This document shows, in pieces, positions 59,165 through 64,000 of a stretch of 64,000 bases of DNA. Position numbers and translations under genes: made by a program. Below the pieces are notes generated by a model. That model was not told the DNA's origin. It searched no databases and saw only the letters and a program-made list of their open reading frames with translations. The first letter of the stretch is position 1, and every line of letters begins with the position of its first letter. The stretch is from Escherichia coli (GTDB taxonomy: Bacteria; Pseudomonadota; Gammaproteobacteria; Enterobacterales; Enterobacteriaceae), in assembly GCF_003019035.1 (NCBI RefSeq), contig NZ_CP027447.1; one strand, given 5' to 3'.

Positions 59165-59882
59165 AGCTGCCGCCCCCCCATGTCAGATAACGGGGGGCCA
59201 GTTCGTGCAGGATGCGCTGCGGATAATGGCGGTTCTCCCGCCAGCTGGCAGCATTGCGTCCGGCATTCACCGTGGCGACATGCCCGAACCAGCGGGTACT
59301 GTCCAGGCCTTTCTGTGATGCTAGCTGCCTGTCCCGTTGTACCCAGCCCAGACCACCGTTATAGCCCGACAGTGTCATGGCCATACGTTCGCAGTCACTG
59401 GCGGCGCTGACGCGCTGCCACAGCCAGCGGTCATAGCTGACCAGCGCCCGGATGGCCCATGCCGGATTAAACGGCTCACGGCTGTTAAGCCCCGGCATCA
59501 GCTGACTTATCCAGTCAGCAGTGGCGGGCATGAACTGCGCCAGTCCCTGAGCGCCAGCCGGCGAGACCGCATCAGGTCGCCAGCCGCTTTCCTGATGCAG
59601 TTGCGCAGCGAAATCGGCCACCGGCGCAGACAGTCCCCATTCAAGCCGGGCATTACGGATCACATCATCGCGATACTGCAGCGCAGCCTGCGGAGGCTGC
59701 GCTGCGCGGGCCTGACTGAAGAAGCCGCCACACCAGAGCAGCCAGACAATCACCAGGTTGCCAGCAAGCTGCCACCAGAAGCTGTATTTATCGTTACGTG
59801 GTTCTCCGTGTCTGATGGCGGTTACGCCCAGACCAAAGGCGAACAGAATAATGAGGGTGATTTGAGGCCAGTTCATGGTCAC
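59154..59882 (-). CDS. Lytic transglycosylase (SLT-domain) endolysin with N-terminal hydrophobic segments
   Basis: 242-aa ORF; SLT catalytic region LHQESGW...GLAQFMPAT; two N-terminal hydrophobic stretches. Confidence 0.8.
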   Translation of the reverse strand: MTMNWPQITLIILFAFGLGVTAIRHGEPRNDKYSFWWQLAGNLVIVWLLWCGGFFSQARAAQPPQAALQYRDDVIRNARLEWGLSAPVADFAAQLHQESGWRPDAVSPAGAQGLAQFMPATADWISQLMPGLNSREPFNPAWAIRALVSYDRWLWQRVSAASDCERMAMTLSGYNGGLGWVQRDRQLASQKGLDSTRWFGHVATVNAGRNAASWRENRHYPQRILHELAPRYLTWGGGSCVD

Positions 59883-60262
59883 AGTCCTGTTGCCACAGCC
59901 AGACAGACCGCTGCAACAATCAGTGCACGGCGGATTAACGCAGCAGAAAATACAAGGTGAAGGCCGGTCTGCACAGGGAAACGCCCTTCAGCCATCAGCC
60001 TGTCTTCATGTTTCAGGTACTGACCGGGACGGGCTTTGGGGAAGAGTGAACGGTCAAGCCAGTAACCCAGCACTGCTGCCAGCGTGATGAGTGCCAGCTT
60101 GTAGATCACAACAGGCAGCTGCTGTGGCGAGACCAGAGCGATGGTGCCCAGCAACAGCACTGAGGTCAGCAGCCAGCCGCTGAGGCGAGGTTTTTTAACA
60201 GGGGGAATGAATTTTTTCAGGTTTTTCATGTGTGTCTCCTTGTCTGGTGGAGACAGCATCAC
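59879..60262 (-). CDS. Putative holin / lysis-associated membrane protein
   Basis: 127-aa ORF with about 3 predicted TM helices, first gene of the lysis cluster. Confidence 0.45.
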   Translation of the reverse strand: MMLSPPDKETHMKNLKKFIPPVKKPRLSGWLLTSVLLLGTIALVSPQQLPVVIYKLALITLAAVLGYWLDRSLFPKARPGQYLKHEDRLMAEGRFPVQTGLHLVFSAALIRRALIVAAVCLAVATGL

Positions 60263-60359
60263 AAATACAGGGCGCGAAGGATTTTAAAGCGCGTTAAGAG
60301 AGCCGGGGATACGGGATGTGCAGGATAAACGATGAATTATTCACAGAGGAGAATACGAT

Positions 60360-60785
60360 ATGACGCAGACACTGAATCCGGTCATCACTGTCACCGTGTC
60401 CGGTCCTGTGGGCAGCGGTAAAAGTTACGTACTGGCGCGGATAGAAGAGATGGTGAAACAGGAACCCGGAAACAGCGTCATTGTCGATGCTGCTGACGTG
60501 GAGAATGAGCGCCGTATGAGTGGGGATGATCTGAGCACATGGCAGAAACCACAGGCAGGTACAATTATCCGACTGGAAGAATACACTGAGCGGGTAACTC
60601 TATCATATAGTGAGGAGCGCATTTGCCTGACGAATGCACTGCTGGAAGTTATATGTCCCGAAGGCAAGAGCCCCTGGATACTACCCGATGCTGTACATGC
60701 CGCAATTGCTGCATTGTTCGTATTATACGATCAGGAGCTGGTTTTAATGGAGTTATGTAAGGTTATTAAAGCTACAGAAAAGTAA
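60360..60785 (+). CDS. Small P-loop (Walker A GPVGSGKS) protein, hypothetical
   Basis: 141-aa plus-strand ORF with a good Shine-Dalgarno (gaggag); oriented opposite to the late operon. Confidence 0.5.
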   Translation: MTQTLNPVITVTVSGPVGSGKSYVLARIEEMVKQEPGNSVIVDAADVENERRMSGDDLSTWQKPQAGTIIRLEEYTERVTLSYSEERICLTNALLEVICPEGKSPWILPDAVHAAIAALFVLYDQELVLMELCKVIKATEK

Positions 60786-60860
60786 AAATATTATCGGTAT
60801 CCTGTGGATGATAAAAACACGCTACCCACAGGATTACTTGTATAAAACCGTGGATAACAA

Positions 60861-61355
60861 CTAGATAAAACCATCATAGAAGTCATCCCTCTTACGAGAC
60901 CTGATACGAACTGGATTTGGCTCTCCTTTCAACCATACAGCACTGTTTTGACCACAAACCGGACACATGCAAAAACTGTCTTTTCGTATATGCAGGATAC
61001 TTTTCAGGTTTTTGGAATCAAAACAAGTCTGGCAAATATAATGTTCAGTTTCATCGTTTCCCGTATAACGATAAGCATAGAAGCCTTTTTCTTCACTCAG
61101 TAACGTCAGTTTATAATTACCGCGAAAGTTAAGAAGGTCTTCCAGAGAGCGAATTTTCTCTTCCAGATTGGTAATGGTTTTTTGCTGTTCTCCTAGCTTG
61201 CTCGTTACCTCAAAGAACTGCCCCTGTGCTTCAATAATTTTACTCTGTAATTCACTGGTCAAAGCGGCCTGTTTTATTTGATCACGCTCTTTTATTATTT
61301 TCTGAGCAGTACTGCTGATATAGCCAAGAGCTGTTAATAAAGCGTTTGTATCCAT
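60861..61355 (-). CDS. Hypothetical coiled-coil protein with C-terminal Cys4 zinc-ribbon-like motif
   Basis: Start chosen at MDTNALLTALGY; ends CQTCF...CMCPVCG; sits in a visibly AT-rich stretch (about 60800-61400). Confidence 0.5.
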   Translation of the reverse strand: MDTNALLTALGYISSTAQKIIKERDQIKQAALTSELQSKIIEAQGQFFEVTSKLGEQQKTITNLEEKIRSLEDLLNFRGNYKLTLLSEEKGFYAYRYTGNDETEHYICQTCFDSKNLKSILHIRKDSFCMCPVCGQNSAVWLKGEPNPVRIRSRKRDDFYDGFI

Positions 61356-61557
61356 AGCACCCCGATATCCTCTAAACCACATTAACAGAAATCACTTCAT
61401 CCCTGCCGCATCATGAAAGAACGACCAGCCCGGCACCCGAAAGCCGGGCTGGTCATCGTCCCACAGGAATGCACTGTGAGCCGACCGAGGTTCAGTCAGT
61501 CTCGCGAGACCAGACTAGCCTGCCATATTTTTAATAATTGTAAAAGGCTTACAGATT

Positions 61558-62322
61558 ATGAAAATGCAGTCATTACCCATCGTTCCATGGATTGGTGGCA
61601 AACGCCGCCTTGCAAAACACATTCTGCCGCTGTTTCCGGCGCATGAATGTTATGTGGAGCCGTTTTGTGGGGCAGCAGCGCTCTATTTTCTTAAGACACC
61701 CGGCAAGATCGAAGTCATTAATGATATCAACGGTGAACTGGTGAATCTGTACCGGGTGGTAAAGCATCACCTGGAAGAATTTGTCCACCAGTTCAAATGG
61801 GCGCTGGTCAGCCGTCAGATCTACAAGTGGCTGCAGATCACCCCGGAAGAAACACTGACGGATATCCAGCGTGCAGCACGGTTCTACTACCTCCAGAAGC
61901 AGGCGTTTGGCGGCAAGGTAGCAGAACACAGCTTCGGTACCTCCACCACATCCCCGCCACGCTTCAACCTGCTGCGTATTGAAGAAGAACTGTCAGCGGC
62001 ACACCTGCGACTTTCCAGAACAGTCATAGAACACATGGACTGGCAACAGTGCATTGAGCGCTATGATCGTCCGCACACGCTGTTCTACTGTGATCCGCCG
62101 TATCTGGGTACGGAAGGCTATGGTGTGGATTTTCCTGAAGGGAACTACTCGCGGCTGGCAGAGCTGGCCCGGTGCATCAGAGGAAAAATGATAATTTCGG
62201 TGAACGACATCCCGCAGATGCGCGAGGTGTTCACTGGACTGAACATACAGACAGTGAATATCAACTACAGTCTGGCGGGGAAACCCACGCCGCGCCGTGA
62301 ACTGATAATCTGCAACTTCTGA
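61558..62322 (+). CDS. DNA adenine methyltransferase (Dam / D12 class N6-adenine MTase)
   Basis: 254-aa ORF with an N-terminal AdoMet-binding region and the DPPY catalytic motif (YCDPPYLGTEGYG). Confidence 0.85.
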   Translation: MKMQSLPIVPWIGGKRRLAKHILPLFPAHECYVEPFCGAAALYFLKTPGKIEVINDINGELVNLYRVVKHHLEEFVHQFKWALVSRQIYKWLQITPEETLTDIQRAARFYYLQKQAFGGKVAEHSFGTSTTSPPRFNLLRIEEELSAAHLRLSRTVIEHMDWQQCIERYDRPHTLFYCDPPYLGTEGYGVDFPEGNYSRLAELARCIRGKMIISVNDIPQMREVFTGLNIQTVNINYSLAGKPTPRRELIICNF

Positions 62323-62329
62323 AACAGAA

Positions 62330-62352
62330 CCGGAAAGCACAATGCTTTCCGG
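62330..62352. terminator. Perfect 10-bp stem hairpin between the convergent methylase and repressor genes
   Basis: ccggaaagca-caa-tgctttccgg; no strong T-tract. Confidence 0.4.
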
Positions 62353-62438
62353 TAAATCAGCCCATTCCTGCCATGCTACTGACGGCGCTTTCTGAAAGCG
62401 TCCAGATCAACCACCTGTCCTTTGTGTCCGGGTCAGAA

Positions 62439-62786
62439 TCAGCCTGTAAATTTACTTGGTTTGGGTTGAGTATAGAATCGCCCAACCTCAAGAAATGAGC
62501 GTCGTTGTTCCGGAGTCATTTCATCAAATGCGTCCATTAATTTTTGTTTTTCTGGTGACATTTTTGGGACAACATTGGTCATTACATCCCCTCTCTGTCC
62601 TGTAACAACGTAAAGCACGTCAAGCCCTAAAGTAGCCCAAATTGCCAAAGCATCTGCTCCGGGAGCGGATTCATCCTTTTCCCACCGCAATTGGCTTTTA
62701 TAGGATGCCCCCACCAATTCAGCAAACTCAGACTGACTAAATCCTAGGCGGTTTCGTTCTTCTTTTAATCGTGAGCCAAGTGACAT
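62439..62786 (-). CDS. HTH (XRE-family) phage repressor-like protein
   Basis: Start preferred at MSLGSRLKEERNRLGFSQSEFAELVGASYKSQLRWE; divergent from a Cro/Ner-like gene. Confidence 0.7.
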   Translation of the reverse strand: MSLGSRLKEERNRLGFSQSEFAELVGASYKSQLRWEKDESAPGADALAIWATLGLDVLYVVTGQRGDVMTNVVPKMSPEKQKLMDAFDEMTPEQRRSFLEVGRFYTQPKPSKFTG

Positions 62787-62878
62787 TTTTGTCCAATACC
62801 TATTTACATGTCCCATTTTTGGGATAATAATCTAACATATATAGAGCAAACATCATTGCGTTAATAAAGGAGGCAACA
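62787..62878. promoter_or_regulatory. Divergent promoter/operator region of the putative lysogeny switch
   Basis: 92-bp AT-rich gap between the divergent HTH genes, with a strong Shine-Dalgarno (aaggagg) for the plus-strand gene. Confidence 0.4.
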
Positions 62879-63067
62879 ATGACTGCAGAGCAGGTCAAAG
62901 CCCATTTCCGCCGCAACGGAATCACCTTTACCCAGTGGGCAAAACAGAACAACTACACCCGAGCAGAGGTTTACCGCGTACTGAATGGACAGGTAAAAGC
63001 GAACTATGGCAAAGCCCATGAAATCGCCGTCAAGCTGGGATTAAAAACCATCACTGACGCCGCTTAA
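62879..63067 (+). CDS. Small DNA-binding protein, Ner/Cro-like
   Basis: 62-aa basic ORF with an HTH-like segment, divergent from the repressor. Confidence 0.55.
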   Translation: MTAEQVKAHFRRNGITFTQWAKQNNYTRAEVYRVLNGQVKANYGKAHEIAVKLGLKTITDAA

Positions 63068-63113
63068 AAAGATACAGCATGCGAAAAAGATTATCACATA
63101 TTGAAAAAGAGGT

Positions 63114-63428
63114 ATGCAGATGAGTAAGACGAATGTTTCAAGCTCCGGCAGTCGTATCCTCCGGGTACTCAAAGCGCTGCGCGGTCATGCCCTGAACGGT
63201 ATTTCCAACGGTGAACTGGCAGCAGCACTGCACGAGTCACCGGCAAACATCAACCGGGCACTCAACACCCTCATTGAAGAAGGGCTGGCCCTGAAACTGG
63301 AGAATGGACGTTTTGCTCCTGGCATCCAGTTACTGCAGATCGCCATGGCTCACAGTAACGAGATGGCACGAGCGCAGGATCGTATTAACGAAATCAACCA
63401 ACGTGTCATTTCAGGTAGTCGTTTGTAA
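63114..63428 (+). CDS. Hypothetical early protein with N-terminal winged-HTH-like segment
   Basis: 104-aa ORF (SRILRVLKALRGHALNGISNGELAAAL). Confidence 0.4.
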   Translation: MQMSKTNVSSSGSRILRVLKALRGHALNGISNGELAAALHESPANINRALNTLIEEGLALKLENGRFAPGIQLLQIAMAHSNEMARAQDRINEINQRVISGSRL

Positions 63429-63438
63429 GGAGTAATCA

Positions 63439-64000
63439 ATGGGACGCACTAAATCACCAATGACCACAGATCTGAATGCTGAGGTGCCGCTTTCTGATGA
63501 TCTCAACGTCAGCCTGAATACCATGACACAGCATCGTATGGAGATCATGCAGCAGTTCGGCGACGGCCTGCCCTATGAACGTAATCGCATCGTTCACGAA
63601 GCTCGGTTTTATATGGACCAGAGTGCGGAGGCTATGCTGGAGGCAGGTAAACGTTTGGTTATCCTGAAGGAAAATGAACCTCATGGAGAATACGTACAAA
63701 TCGTCAAAGAACAGTTGAACCTTGAGCCACGCATAGCCCAAAAAATGGCCCAAGCTGCTCTGAAGTTTTTATCTCCAGAGCTGACATCAAAAGCGAAAAC
63801 GTTTTCGCATTTGGGAAGATCAAAACTGTACGAATTGATGTTAGAGGATGATGAAGACCTTGCCGAACTGGCCGACGGTGGCACAGTTGCCGGCCTGACG
63901 CTTGACGACGTTGATCGCATGTCAGTACGTGAATTGCGTCAGTCTCTTCGCGAAGCCCGCGAAACCAACGCAGCACAACAGCGCGTACTCGCCGACAAAA
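63439..64000 (+). CDS. Hypothetical early protein (3' end lies outside the window)
   Basis: ATG at 63439 preceded by aaggag; frame open to the window end; absent from the ORF track because there is no stop. Confidence 0.4.
   Translation, partial: MGRTKSPMTTDLNAEVPLSDDLNVSLNTMTQHRMEIMQQFGDGLPYERNRIVHEARFYMDQSAEAMLEAGKRLVILKENEPHGEYVQIVKEQLNLEPRIAQKMAQAALKFLSPELTSKAKTFSHLGRSKLYELMLEDDEDLAELADGGTVAGLTLDDVDRMSVRELRQSLREARETNAAQQRVLADK

What the first reader, a model, noticed from the sequence alone, without database searches (positions are those of the whole stretch)
60263..62438. Accessory island between the lysis genes and the lysogeny switch
Between the uniformly minus-strand late operon and the repressor lie three genes of mixed orientation. 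One is a 141-aa protein with a Walker A motif, too short for a standard kinase or ATPase fold. One is a 173-aa coiled-coil protein ending in a Cys4 zinc-ribbon, in a clearly AT-rich stretch that suggests separate acquisition. The third is a Dam-family methyltransferase. Positions like this in temperate phages often carry anti-restriction, superinfection-exclusion or anti-phage defence cargo. The zinc-ribbon protein could alternatively be an Ogr/Delta-style late activator, since it lies just upstream of the late genes on the same strand.
Basis: partly seen in the sequence, partly recalled or inferred. Interest (0 to 1): 0.7.

Follow-up and report, generated by a model that had tools for sequence, protein, structure and literature searches.

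The report
Rip1-family defence gene in prophage
The three genes are real, but only the zinc-ribbon gene is rare imported cargo: it is a divergent relative of Rip1, a recently solved prophage defence protein that senses the small-terminase ring of an invading phage. The other two genes are common parts of this E. coli prophage type.

Summary
Window 60263-62438 carries three genes of mixed orientation in a BcepMu-like transposable prophage of E. coli.

1. The zinc-ribbon protein (60861-61355, minus strand) is 164 aa from the start codon the family supports, not 173. It belongs to the Rip1 ("ring interacting pore 1") family. It shares PHROG 1244 with phage HK446 Rip1. A family profile hits PDB 9oox (Rip1 bound to the T6 small terminase) at E 4.6e-30. 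A confident AlphaFold model has 9oox as its only significant fold match. The gene sits in a 599-bp, 38% GC cassette found in 1 of 5,426 complete E. coli genomes, while the prophage backbone is in 635. It is best read as single-gene anti-phage cargo.

2. The 141-aa Walker A protein belongs to a mosaic family restricted to Enterobacteriaceae (PHROG 3787, function unknown) and is present in 569 genomes. Its short form is a natural, selected isoform, not debris.

3. The Dam-family methylase is a backbone gene, present in 526 genomes.

The Ogr/Delta late-activator idea is not supported. Verdict: a new, divergent member of a known family, of modest interest.

The parts
60861..61355 (-). Rip1-family gene. 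It encodes 164 aa: an N-terminal helix, a long helix at residues 26-79, a beta-hairpin, a Cys4 zinc ribbon and a charged, largely basic tail. The longest ORF runs to 61382 (173 aa), but the family supports a start at 61355.
   Evidence: PHROG 1244 at E 1.5e-24; HK446 Rip1 falls in the same PHROG at 2.2e-53. A family profile hits PDB 9oox Rip1 at E 4.6e-30. Pairwise BLASTP gives 28% identity, E 5e-9. The AF2 model has pLDDT 88. Foldseek puts 9oox first: probability 1.00, TM 0.53/0.67. Conserved Y81, Y95, H105, C108, C111, L121 and C131 are shared with Rip1. dN/dS is 0.145 against an 88%-identical homologue.
60761..61359 (.). AT-rich replacement cassette (GC 0.38) carrying the Rip1-family gene. 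In most related prophages this position instead holds about 600 bp encoding the C-terminal extension of the 247-aa form of the neighbouring gene plus a 71-aa gene.
   Evidence: Pairwise blastn breakpoints against four relatives. GC values. The cassette is found only in E. coli JB2 among 5,426 complete genomes. The right junction lies about 5 nt upstream of the Rip1-like ATG, inside a remnant of the 3' end of the 71-aa gene.
60360..60785 (+). 141-aa protein with a Walker A motif (GPVGSGKS) and a Walker B-like VIVD. It is a member of PHROG 3787, function unknown, and is the short isoform of a mosaic family restricted to Enterobacteriaceae.
   Evidence: PHROG 3787 at E 1.8e-74, matching profile positions 1-136 of 242. 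Pfam gives only weak hits over the Walker A region, E >= 0.002. Family lengths run from 78 to 255 aa. The C-terminus ...LYDQELVLMELCKVIKATEK is shared with Salmonella homologues. dN/dS is 0.18 between two 141-aa alleles at dS 0.32. The gene is present in 569 of 5,426 E. coli genomes.
61558..62322 (+). Dam-family N6-adenine DNA methyltransferase, 254 aa. It is a backbone gene of this prophage type.
   Evidence: TIGR00571 scores 116.7 bits against a cutoff of 114.85. PADLOC MTase_II hits at 2.2e-111. The closest solved relatives are DpnM and E. coli Dam, E 1e-17 to 1e-14. The DPPY motif is present. The gene is in 526 of 5,426 genomes, at the same position in every relative examined.
61413..61464 (-). 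Strong conserved hairpin followed by a U-rich tail on the Rip1-sense strand, about 60 nt upstream of the Rip1-like start codon. It looks like a terminator or insulator.
   Evidence: RNA fold gives -37.1 kcal/mol, z -5.2. The stem is kept through compensatory changes in relatives with and without the Rip1-like gene.
62329..62353 (-). Terminator-like hairpin between the convergent ends of the Dam gene and the repressor gene.
   Evidence: Consensus scan: 11-bp stem followed by a T-rich tail. This is a pattern match only.

Best explanation
The region is the junction between the late operon and the immunity region of a BcepMu-like transposable prophage of E. coli. Two of its three genes, the P-loop-motif gene next to the holin and the Dam-family methylase, are common backbone of this prophage type. 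The third gene, on a 599-bp AT-rich cassette, encodes a divergent member of the Rip1 (ring interacting pore 1) family.

By homology with HK446 Rip1, the most likely mechanism is as follows. The protein is made at a low level in the lysogen. When a superinfecting phage assembles its small-terminase ring late in infection, the C-terminal beta-hairpin/zinc-ribbon modules of about a dozen Rip1-like protomers dock onto that ring. The helical N-terminal parts then come together into a membrane-damaging pore, and the cell dies or stops supporting the phage before progeny are released.

Shown here: family membership, fold, conserved zinc ligands, cargo status, purifying selection, and a recurring position in this prophage slot. 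Inferred from the homologue only: terminase-ring sensing, 12-mer assembly, pore formation and the defence phenotype. Which phages trigger this 28%-identical member is unknown.
For: Homology to Rip1:
- Same PHROG (1244) as HK446 Rip1.
- A profile of 80 family members hits 9oox chain L, 'ring interacting pore 1 (Rip1)', at E 4.6e-30 over nearly the full length. The single-sequence phmmer hit is 4e-5 and BLASTP gives 5e-9 at 28% identity.
- The AF2 model (pLDDT 88) has 9oox, 'HK446 Rip1 in complex with T6 small terminase', as its only significant PDB fold hit.
- The invariant or near-invariant Y, Y, H, CxxC and C residues are shared.

Published function of Rip1:
- A prophage protein that blocks incoming phage. 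[quoted passage not shown]
- It is listed among defence systems that sense the small terminase subunit (bioRxiv 10.64898/2026.04.30.721860).

Cargo behaviour:
- The cassette is present in 1 of 5,426 genomes, against 635 for the backbone.
- GC is 0.38.
- HK446 Rip1 and the Pseudomonas Casadabanvirus homologues are likewise single genes set antisense within phage operons, and are annotated as accessory ORFs.

The gene is maintained: dN/dS is 0.145. Homologues at 46-88% identity occupy the same slot in E. coli and Citrobacter prophages.
Against: - Identity to the characterised Rip1 is only 28%.
- The Gly/Ala-rich hydrophobic N-terminal segment of HK446 Rip1 (Kyte-Doolittle mean 1.49 over 15 residues) corresponds to a shorter, less hydrophobic segment here (about 0.83, my own hand calculation). 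This protein also has a charged, largely basic C-terminal tail that Rip1 lacks.
- No convincing sigma-70 promoter was found between the upstream hairpin and the start codon, so expression in the lysogen is assumed rather than shown.
- PADLOC (2023) has no model for the family, so there is no independent defence-database call.
- I could not read the primary Rip1 paper. The mechanism rests on a PDB title, a meeting report and one citing sentence.
- Family members sit next to lysis or terminase genes in several transposable phages. That leaves room for a role in the phage's own cycle.
Confidence: 0.7

Rival explanations
1. The zinc-ribbon protein is an Ogr/Delta-style (or Mu C/Mor-style) activator of the late operon just downstream on the same strand.
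For: It has a Cys4 zinc-binding motif and lies on the same strand as the late genes, upstream of them. In one distant relative (L017) the family member is co-directional with the lysis and packaging genes.
Against: There is no Ogr_Delta, Mor or other regulator hit in Pfam, NCBIfam or PHROGs. At 164 aa with a long helical region, it does not resemble the short Ogr/Delta proteins (size from general knowledge). The gene is absent from 634 of the 635 E. coli genomes that carry the related prophage segment, and those prophages must still activate late genes. The plus-strand P-loop gene separates it from the holin promoter region. The strong homology is to Rip1 instead.
Confidence: 0.03
2. The zinc-ribbon protein is a Com-like or other nucleic-acid-binding regulator of the adjacent, divergently oriented Dam gene, by analogy with Mu Com and Mom.
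For: It lies next to and divergent from a DNA-modification gene, and it has a zinc ribbon plus a charged, largely basic C-terminal tail.
Against: The Dam gene is present and intact in 526 genomes, and only one of them has the zinc-ribbon gene. There is no Pfam match to Com-type zinc fingers. Family members in HK446 and in the Casadabanviruses are not next to methylases.
Confidence: 0.04
3. The Rip1-like protein serves the resident phage's own cycle rather than defence. For example, it could couple assembly of the phage's own terminase ring to membrane permeabilisation or lysis timing, or it could modulate packaging.
For: In BcepMu-like prophages, family members recur just upstream of the lysis/terminase operon across 36-99% identity. 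In Casadabanviruses they lie between a DNA-binding, TerS-position gene and TerL. The characterised homologue binds a terminase ring and is named a pore.
Against: The gene is dispensable for this prophage type, being absent in nearly all E. coli relatives. It is annotated as an accessory ORF in H70. In HK446 it sits antisense in the early-left operon next to N, far from the packaging genes. Its reported phenotype is blocking incoming phage. The resident TerS is of the Mu gp27 type (PHROG 426 on the window protein; Pfam PF11985 on its counterpart in relatives). The solved complex contains the TerS of phage T6, which I take to be unrelated without having tested it.
Confidence: 0.1
4. One reading: the 141-aa P-loop protein and the zinc-ribbon protein, with or without Dam, form one acquired multi-gene defence island or a two-gene system.
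For: In E. coli the 141-aa allele always accompanies the Rip1-like gene (window, JB2, L009-L011). Both are under purifying selection. P-loop proteins are common in defence systems.
Against: The P-loop gene occurs in 569 genomes without the Rip1-like gene. In Citrobacter, and in relatives 46% identical, the Rip1-like gene sits beside an unrelated protein or beside longer P-loop variants. HK446 Rip1 and the Pseudomonas homologues have no such partner. The co-occurrence is explained by physical linkage at the cassette junction. PADLOC gives only noise-level hits.
Confidence: 0.07

Closest known systems
Rip1 (ring interacting pore 1) of Escherichia phage HK446, gene HK446_037; PDB 9oox, in complex with the T6 small terminase
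   Same: Same PHROG (1244). Both are 164 aa, with the same order of elements: N-terminal helix, long helix, beta-hairpin, then His-x2-CxxC...CxxC zinc ribbon. The fold match is significant. Both are single genes in a temperate phage, set as accessory cargo near the immunity region.
   Different: Identity is only 28%. The N-terminal segment here is shorter and less hydrophobic. This protein has an extra cysteine (C129) and a charged, largely basic C-terminal tail of about 30 residues. The carrier is a BcepMu-like transposable prophage rather than a lambdoid phage. The trigger and the phenotype are untested here.
orf25-type accessory proteins of Pseudomonas Casadabanviruses (D3112 orf25, LPB1 ORF25, H70_029, and homologues in DMS3, JBD30 and MP38)
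   Same: Same PHROG 1244 family. They are also carried by transposable (Mu-like) phages as a lone gene antisense to its neighbours, and are annotated as an accessory ORF.
   Different: Identity is about 27%. They lie between a TerS-position DNA-binding protein and TerL, not between the holin and Dam. To my knowledge and in these records they are uncharacterised.
Other defence proteins that sense the phage packaging machinery: TerI (small terminase) and Avs1-3 (large terminase)
   Same: The same logic of detecting a conserved late structural or packaging protein of the invader and then killing or arresting the cell.
   Different: There is no sequence or architectural similarity. Avs proteins are large STAND NTPases, whereas this is a 164-aa protein with no enzymatic domain.
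Dam-family orphan methyltransferases (E. coli Dam, DpnM, T4 Dam)
   Same: The 254-aa protein passes the TIGR00571 Dam model and has the DPPY motif. DpnM and E. coli Dam are its closest solved relatives.
   Different: It scores far below the E. coli Dam equivalog model (66.7 bits against a cutoff of 441). GATC specificity is therefore not established.

Membership tests
Rip1 (ring interacting pore 1) family / PHROG 1244 | Significant sequence homology to the characterised HK446 Rip1 | tested here: met
   Both proteins fall in PHROG 1244. The family profile hits 9oox at E 4.6e-30. phmmer gives 4e-5. BLASTP gives 28% identity, E 5e-9.
Rip1 (ring interacting pore 1) family / PHROG 1244 | Same fold as the solved Rip1 protomer | tested here: met
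   The AF2 model has pLDDT 88. Foldseek against the PDB ranks 9oox_M and 9oox_L first and second, with probability 1.00 and TM 0.53/0.67. The next hit has E 0.5.
Rip1 (ring interacting pore 1) family / PHROG 1244 | Conserved C-terminal module: two aromatic beta-strands, His, and CxxC...CxxC zinc ligands | tested here: met
   Y81, Y95, H105, C108, C111, L121, C131 and C134 are present. Y81, C108 and C111 are invariant and the others are at least 90% conserved or nearly so across 80 family members and in HK446 Rip1.
Rip1 (ring interacting pore 1) family / PHROG 1244 | Stand-alone accessory gene of a temperate phage | tested here: met
   There is no conserved partner across HK446, the Casadabanviruses and the BcepMu-like prophages. 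The cassette is in 1 of 5,426 genomes against 635 for the backbone.
Rip1 (ring interacting pore 1) family / PHROG 1244 | Binds the small-terminase ring of an invading phage as a ring of about 12 protomers | not testable with these tools
   Known only for HK446 Rip1 with T6 TerS. No multimer prediction or binding assay is available here.
Rip1 (ring interacting pore 1) family / PHROG 1244 | Forms a membrane pore and protects the lysogen from superinfecting phage | not testable with these tools
   This needs experiments. The N-terminal segment here is less hydrophobic than in HK446 Rip1, so the feature cannot be assumed.
Ogr/Delta late transcription activators | Homology to the Ogr_Delta zinc-finger family | tested here: not met
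   There is no such hit in Pfam-A for the protein or for any of 80 family members, and none in NCBIfam or PHROGs.
Ogr/Delta late transcription activators | Required for late transcription, and therefore conserved among related phages | tested here: not met
   Among 5,426 complete E. coli genomes, only JB2 has the gene, while 635 carry the related prophage segment.
Dam-family N6-adenine DNA methyltransferase | Passes the curated family model and has the catalytic DPPY motif and an N-terminal SAM-binding motif | tested here: met
   TIGR00571 scores 116.7 bits against a cutoff of 114.85. YCDPPY and EPFCGAAA are in the sequence. Relatives carry PF02086.
Dam-family N6-adenine DNA methyltransferase | GATC target specificity | not testable with these tools
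   Homology to DpnM and E. coli Dam is only distant, and the protein falls below the E. coli Dam equivalog cutoff. A methylome experiment is needed.
P-loop NTPase | Walker A motif GxxxxGK[ST] after a beta-strand | tested here: met
   ITVTVSGPVGSGKS is present. G15-S22 are invariant among the E. coli sequences, and G15 and K21 stay invariant when Salmonella homologues are added.
P-loop NTPase | Walker B motif and a complete alpha/beta core recognisable as a known P-loop family | tested here: inconclusive
   A Walker B-like VIVD at residues 40-43 is conserved. However, every Pfam hit covers only about 40 residues around Walker A, with E >= 0.002. The AF2 model of the 247-aa relative was unusable, with pLDDT 40.

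The most novel reading that the evidence does not exclude
The stretch between the holin and the repressor of BcepMu-like enterobacterial prophages may be an undescribed hotspot for defence cargo. Two things would make this interesting. First, the Rip1-like clade found there, with its less hydrophobic N-terminus and a clade-specific charged, largely basic tail, may sense a different ring-shaped phage protein or act differently from HK446 Rip1. Second, the adjacent mosaic protein may itself be a new kind of minimal P-loop defence or counter-defence factor. It has a roughly 50-residue module (strand, Walker A, helix, then a strand ending in an acidic residue) whose N- and C-terminal modules are swapped between relatives.
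Probability: 0.15. Interest if true: 0.55.

Novelty: new member of a known kind. Interest (0 to 1): 0.3.

Why it matters
The result gives a function-level hypothesis for a protein that genome records label 'hypothetical'. It extends the newly described Rip1 family into BcepMu-like transposable prophages of E. coli and Citrobacter at only 28% identity, which is useful for mapping how terminase-ring sensors diversify their specificity. It also shows that two-thirds of the supposed island is ordinary prophage backbone. That saves effort on the Dam gene and narrows the open question to one small mosaic P-loop protein. For the field as a whole the increment is modest, because the family, its structure and its mode of action have already been reported.

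Tried and rejected
- PADLOC gave only noise-level hits for both small proteins: LmuB 2e-4, mad8, SngB and HerA. The LmuB hit and the archaeal SMC-related hit cover the long helix plus CxxC. I treat them as coiled-coil bias, not as evidence for a Rad50/SMC zinc hook, because Rip1 explains the whole length far better.
- Pfam gave nothing significant for either small protein or for any of 80 Rip1-family members beyond coiled-coil families.
- The AlphaFold model of the 247-aa relative of the P-loop protein, built on a shallow 14-sequence alignment, failed (pLDDT 40). I ran no fold search on it.
- A profile search for distant P-loop relatives found only Enterobacteriaceae proteins with no useful annotation. 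The names 'ABC transporter ATPase' and 'KAP family NTPase' rest on the Walker A motif alone.
- My first reading, that the 141-aa protein is a gene truncated by the cassette insertion, I withdrew. Salmonella homologues end at the same C-terminal sequence, and two diverged 141-aa alleles show dN/dS 0.18.
- Rfam found nothing in 59800-63200.
- The promoter scan found no convincing promoter for the Rip1-like gene.
- Literature searches for the primary Rip1 paper failed. Only a meeting report and one citing preprint were found.
- Other cargo proteins at this slot in relatives have no PADLOC hit and only 'unknown function' PHROGs.
Full report
**Setting**

The window is E. coli DNA. Its left part matches the fumB-manA-ydgA region at 99-100% identity. 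Its right part is a BcepMu-like transposable prophage.

Downstream of the finding, on the minus strand, lie a holin (PHROG 1528), an SLT endolysin, an Rz-like spanin, a lipoprotein, a Mu gp27-type small terminase (PHROG 426), the large terminase and the portal. On the other side lie an XRE-type repressor (62439-62816, minus), a BcepMu gp16-family DNA-binding protein and an IclR-like HTH protein. In relatives these are followed by DUF3102 and the DDE transposase. The closest isolated phage, PhiKM, is classified as a Bcepmuvirus. The 3.7-kb stretch around the finding matches 635 of 5,426 complete E. coli genomes.

**Observation**

All three ORFs exist as described. The Walker A motif, the long helix followed by Cys4, the AT-rich stretch (GC 0.38 against 0.50-0.56) and the Dam assignment (TIGR00571 above its cutoff, DPPY present) are all confirmed. 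There are three small corrections:

- The zinc-ribbon gene most likely starts at 61355, giving 164 aa. Family members start at the equivalent Met-Asp, and RefSeq annotates the JB2 copy that way.
- A tail of about 30 residues follows the zinc ribbon.
- The holin is probably 116 aa.

**Which parts are cargo**

Pairwise alignment with four relatives shows that homology is lost only between about 60760 and 61359.

| Feature | Complete E. coli genomes of 5,426 |
|---|---|
| 3.7-kb segment around the finding (59800-63500) | 635 |
| Conserved part of the P-loop gene | 569 |
| Dam gene | 526 |
| 599-bp cassette / zinc-ribbon gene | 1 (strain JB2) |

The cassette count stays at one even under sensitive blastn. 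In most relatives the same position holds about 600 bp that encode a C-terminal extension of the neighbouring gene plus a 71-aa gene. The right junction lies about 5 nt upstream of the zinc-ribbon start codon, inside a remnant of the 3' end of the 71-aa gene. The 'island' is therefore a backbone carrying one swapped-in cassette.

**The zinc-ribbon protein**

PHROGs places it in family 1244, function unknown. An exhaustive search of 1.84 billion cluster representatives found 240 relatives, mostly 140-180 aa.

An alignment of 80 of them shows an N-terminal helical half. This is followed by a conserved module, R-Y-x-L ... G-x-F-A-Y ... E-P-x-H-x-x-C-Q-x-C-F-D ... K-S-V-L ... C-P-x-C, with Y81, C108 and C111 invariant. 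A profile built from that alignment hits a single solved protein convincingly: PDB 9oox chain L, 'ring interacting pore 1 (Rip1)', 164 aa, E 4.6e-30 over nearly the full length.

The AlphaFold model is confident (pLDDT 88). It shows helices at 2-22 and 26-79, then a small beta/zinc module. Its only significant PDB fold matches are the two 9oox Rip1 chains, from 'Cryo-EM structure of the Escherichia phage HK446 Rip1 in complex with the Enterobacteria phage T6 small terminase' (probability 1.00, TM 0.53/0.67, 26-27% identity).

HK446 Rip1 (HK446_037) scores 2.2e-53 against the same PHROG. It aligns directly with the window protein at 28% identity, E 5e-9, and shares the conserved residues.

**What Rip1 is**

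I could not find the primary paper in the library. Two sources describe it:

[quoted passage not shown] - A 2026 preprint lists Rip1 with TerI among defence systems that sense the small terminase subunit (10.64898/2026.04.30.721860).

The PDB entry holds 12 Rip1 chains, which agrees with this.

**Context of the family**

- In HK446, the gene lies antisense inside the early-left operon, beside gene N and close to the repressor. This is a typical accessory-gene position.
- In Pseudomonas Casadabanviruses (D3112 orf25, LPB1 ORF25, H70_029, and DMS3, JBD30, MP38 among others), a family member lies antisense between a DNA-binding protein at the TerS position and TerL. It is annotated as an 'accessory ORF'.
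- In BcepMu-like prophages of E. coli and Citrobacter, homologues at 88%, 62% and 46% identity occupy exactly the slot seen in the window. A 36% homologue lies just upstream of the lysis genes of another such phage.

Window against the 88% homologue gives dN/dS 0.145 at dS 0.37, so the gene is maintained by selection.

**Mechanism proposed, and its limits**

By homology, this is a single-protein sensor-effector. The zinc-ribbon/beta module docks onto the small-terminase ring of a superinfecting phage. Oligomerisation on that ring assembles the helical parts into a membrane-damaging pore, and the infection aborts.

Only membership, fold, motif conservation, cargo status and selection are shown here. 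Several points counsel caution:

- Identity is low.
- The N-terminal segment is less hydrophobic than the Gly/Ala-rich one of HK446 Rip1.
- This clade has its own charged, largely basic tail and an extra cysteine.
- No convincing promoter lies between the strong conserved hairpin at 61413-61464 and the start codon.

The resident phage's own TerS is of the Mu gp27 type (PHROG 426; PF11985 in relatives). The only known Rip1 trigger is the TerS of phage T6, which I take to be unrelated without having tested it. Whether the resident TerS escapes recognition is untested.

**The Walker A protein**

It matches PHROG 3787 (function unknown), covering positions 1-136 of a 242-position profile. Pfam gives only weak hits of about 40 residues around the P-loop.

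Most E. coli relatives are 242-247 aa. Forms of 141, 143, 158, 182, 212 and 219 aa also exist. I first took the 141-aa form for a truncation caused by the cassette. Two results argue against that:

- Salmonella homologues of 205-255 aa, and others of 145-148 aa with an unrelated N-terminus, end with the same sequence (...HAxIAALFVLYDQELVxMELxK...) at the same point.
- Two diverged 141-aa alleles show dN/dS 0.18 at dS 0.32.

The family is mosaic. A conserved N-terminal module of about 50 residues runs strand, GPxGSGKS, helix, then a strand ending in D/E. After it come an optional middle part, a conserved helical C-terminal module and an optional 106-aa extension. In Citrobacter an unrelated protein takes this position.

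The structure prediction failed (pLDDT 40). The function remains unknown. The motif is genuine, but the protein cannot be filed under any known NTPase family. Its constant pairing with the Rip1-like gene in E. coli is explained by linkage at the junction, because 568 genomes have the gene without Rip1.

**The methylase**

It is a Dam-family enzyme distantly related to DpnM and E. coli Dam. It sits at the same place in every relative examined. It is backbone, not island cargo. Its target sequence cannot be read from the sequence.

**Alternatives**

- The Ogr/Delta idea fails on homology, on size and on conservation.
- A Com-like role for Dam fails because Dam is nearly always present without the zinc-ribbon gene.
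- A role in the phage's own packaging or lysis cannot be excluded, given the family's recurrent position near lysis and terminase genes. It is made unlikely by the gene's dispensability and by the reported phenotype of Rip1.

**Verdict**

That gene belongs to a family already described and structurally solved in 2026. It is a new, divergent member of a known kind. The remaining unknown is the small mosaic P-loop protein.

Noticed in passing
window 61413-61464 (minus strand): A very stable hairpin (-37 kcal/mol, z -5.2) with a U-rich tail on the minus strand, between the Dam start and the Rip1-like start. It is conserved, with compensatory stem changes, in relatives both with and without the Rip1-like gene. 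It may be a terminator that insulates this slot from leftward transcription.
   Followed up: partly
window 60360-60785; proteins P0187, P0190, P0200, P0201; L012:5486-6274: The gene next to the holin is a mosaic family. The P-loop N-terminal module, a middle insert, a conserved helical C-terminal module and a 106-aa extension occur in different combinations. Some relatives replace the P-loop module with an unrelated N-terminus also seen in the Citrobacter protein at this position.
   Followed up: partly
L002:3980-5270; L009:2529-3981; L015:3160-3928 (relatives; no counterpart in the window at about 62323-62438): There is a second variable slot between Dam and the repressor in related prophages. 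JB2 has a 114-aa membrane protein plus a 297-aa protein there, and other relatives have sets of 98/197/177 aa or 135/115 aa. None has a PADLOC hit, and PHROGs give only 'unknown function'. The window has no cargo at this slot.
   Followed up: partly
L005:3935-4441 (LPB1), L006 (H70), and D3112, DMS3, JBD30 and MP38 hits: Rip1-family genes are common in Pseudomonas Casadabanviruses. They always lie antisense between a PHROG 756 DNA-binding protein (at the TerS position) and the large terminase gene. This is a notable location for a protein whose homologue binds terminase rings.
   Followed up: partly
window 62439-63428 compared with L002, L003, L009, L010 and L015: The immunity region is itself mosaic among relatives. 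Repressors differ (125 aa here; 138, 118 and 150 aa elsewhere). One relative has a Mor-family gene beside the repressor, and the similarity of L002 and L003 to the window is lost or drops across the repressor segment.
   Followed up: no
window 36000-64000 against 1-30000: GATC is more depleted in the prophage part (observed/expected 0.64) than in the host part (0.81), even though the prophage carries its own Dam-family methylase.
   Followed up: no
window 60786-60860: The 75-bp gap between the convergent ends of the P-loop gene and the Rip1-like gene contains a 9-bp inverted repeat (ATCCTGTGG...CCACAGGAT). It folds modestly better than shuffled sequence on both strands (z -2.3 to -2.7) and may be a shared terminator that came in with the cassette.
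   Followed up: partly
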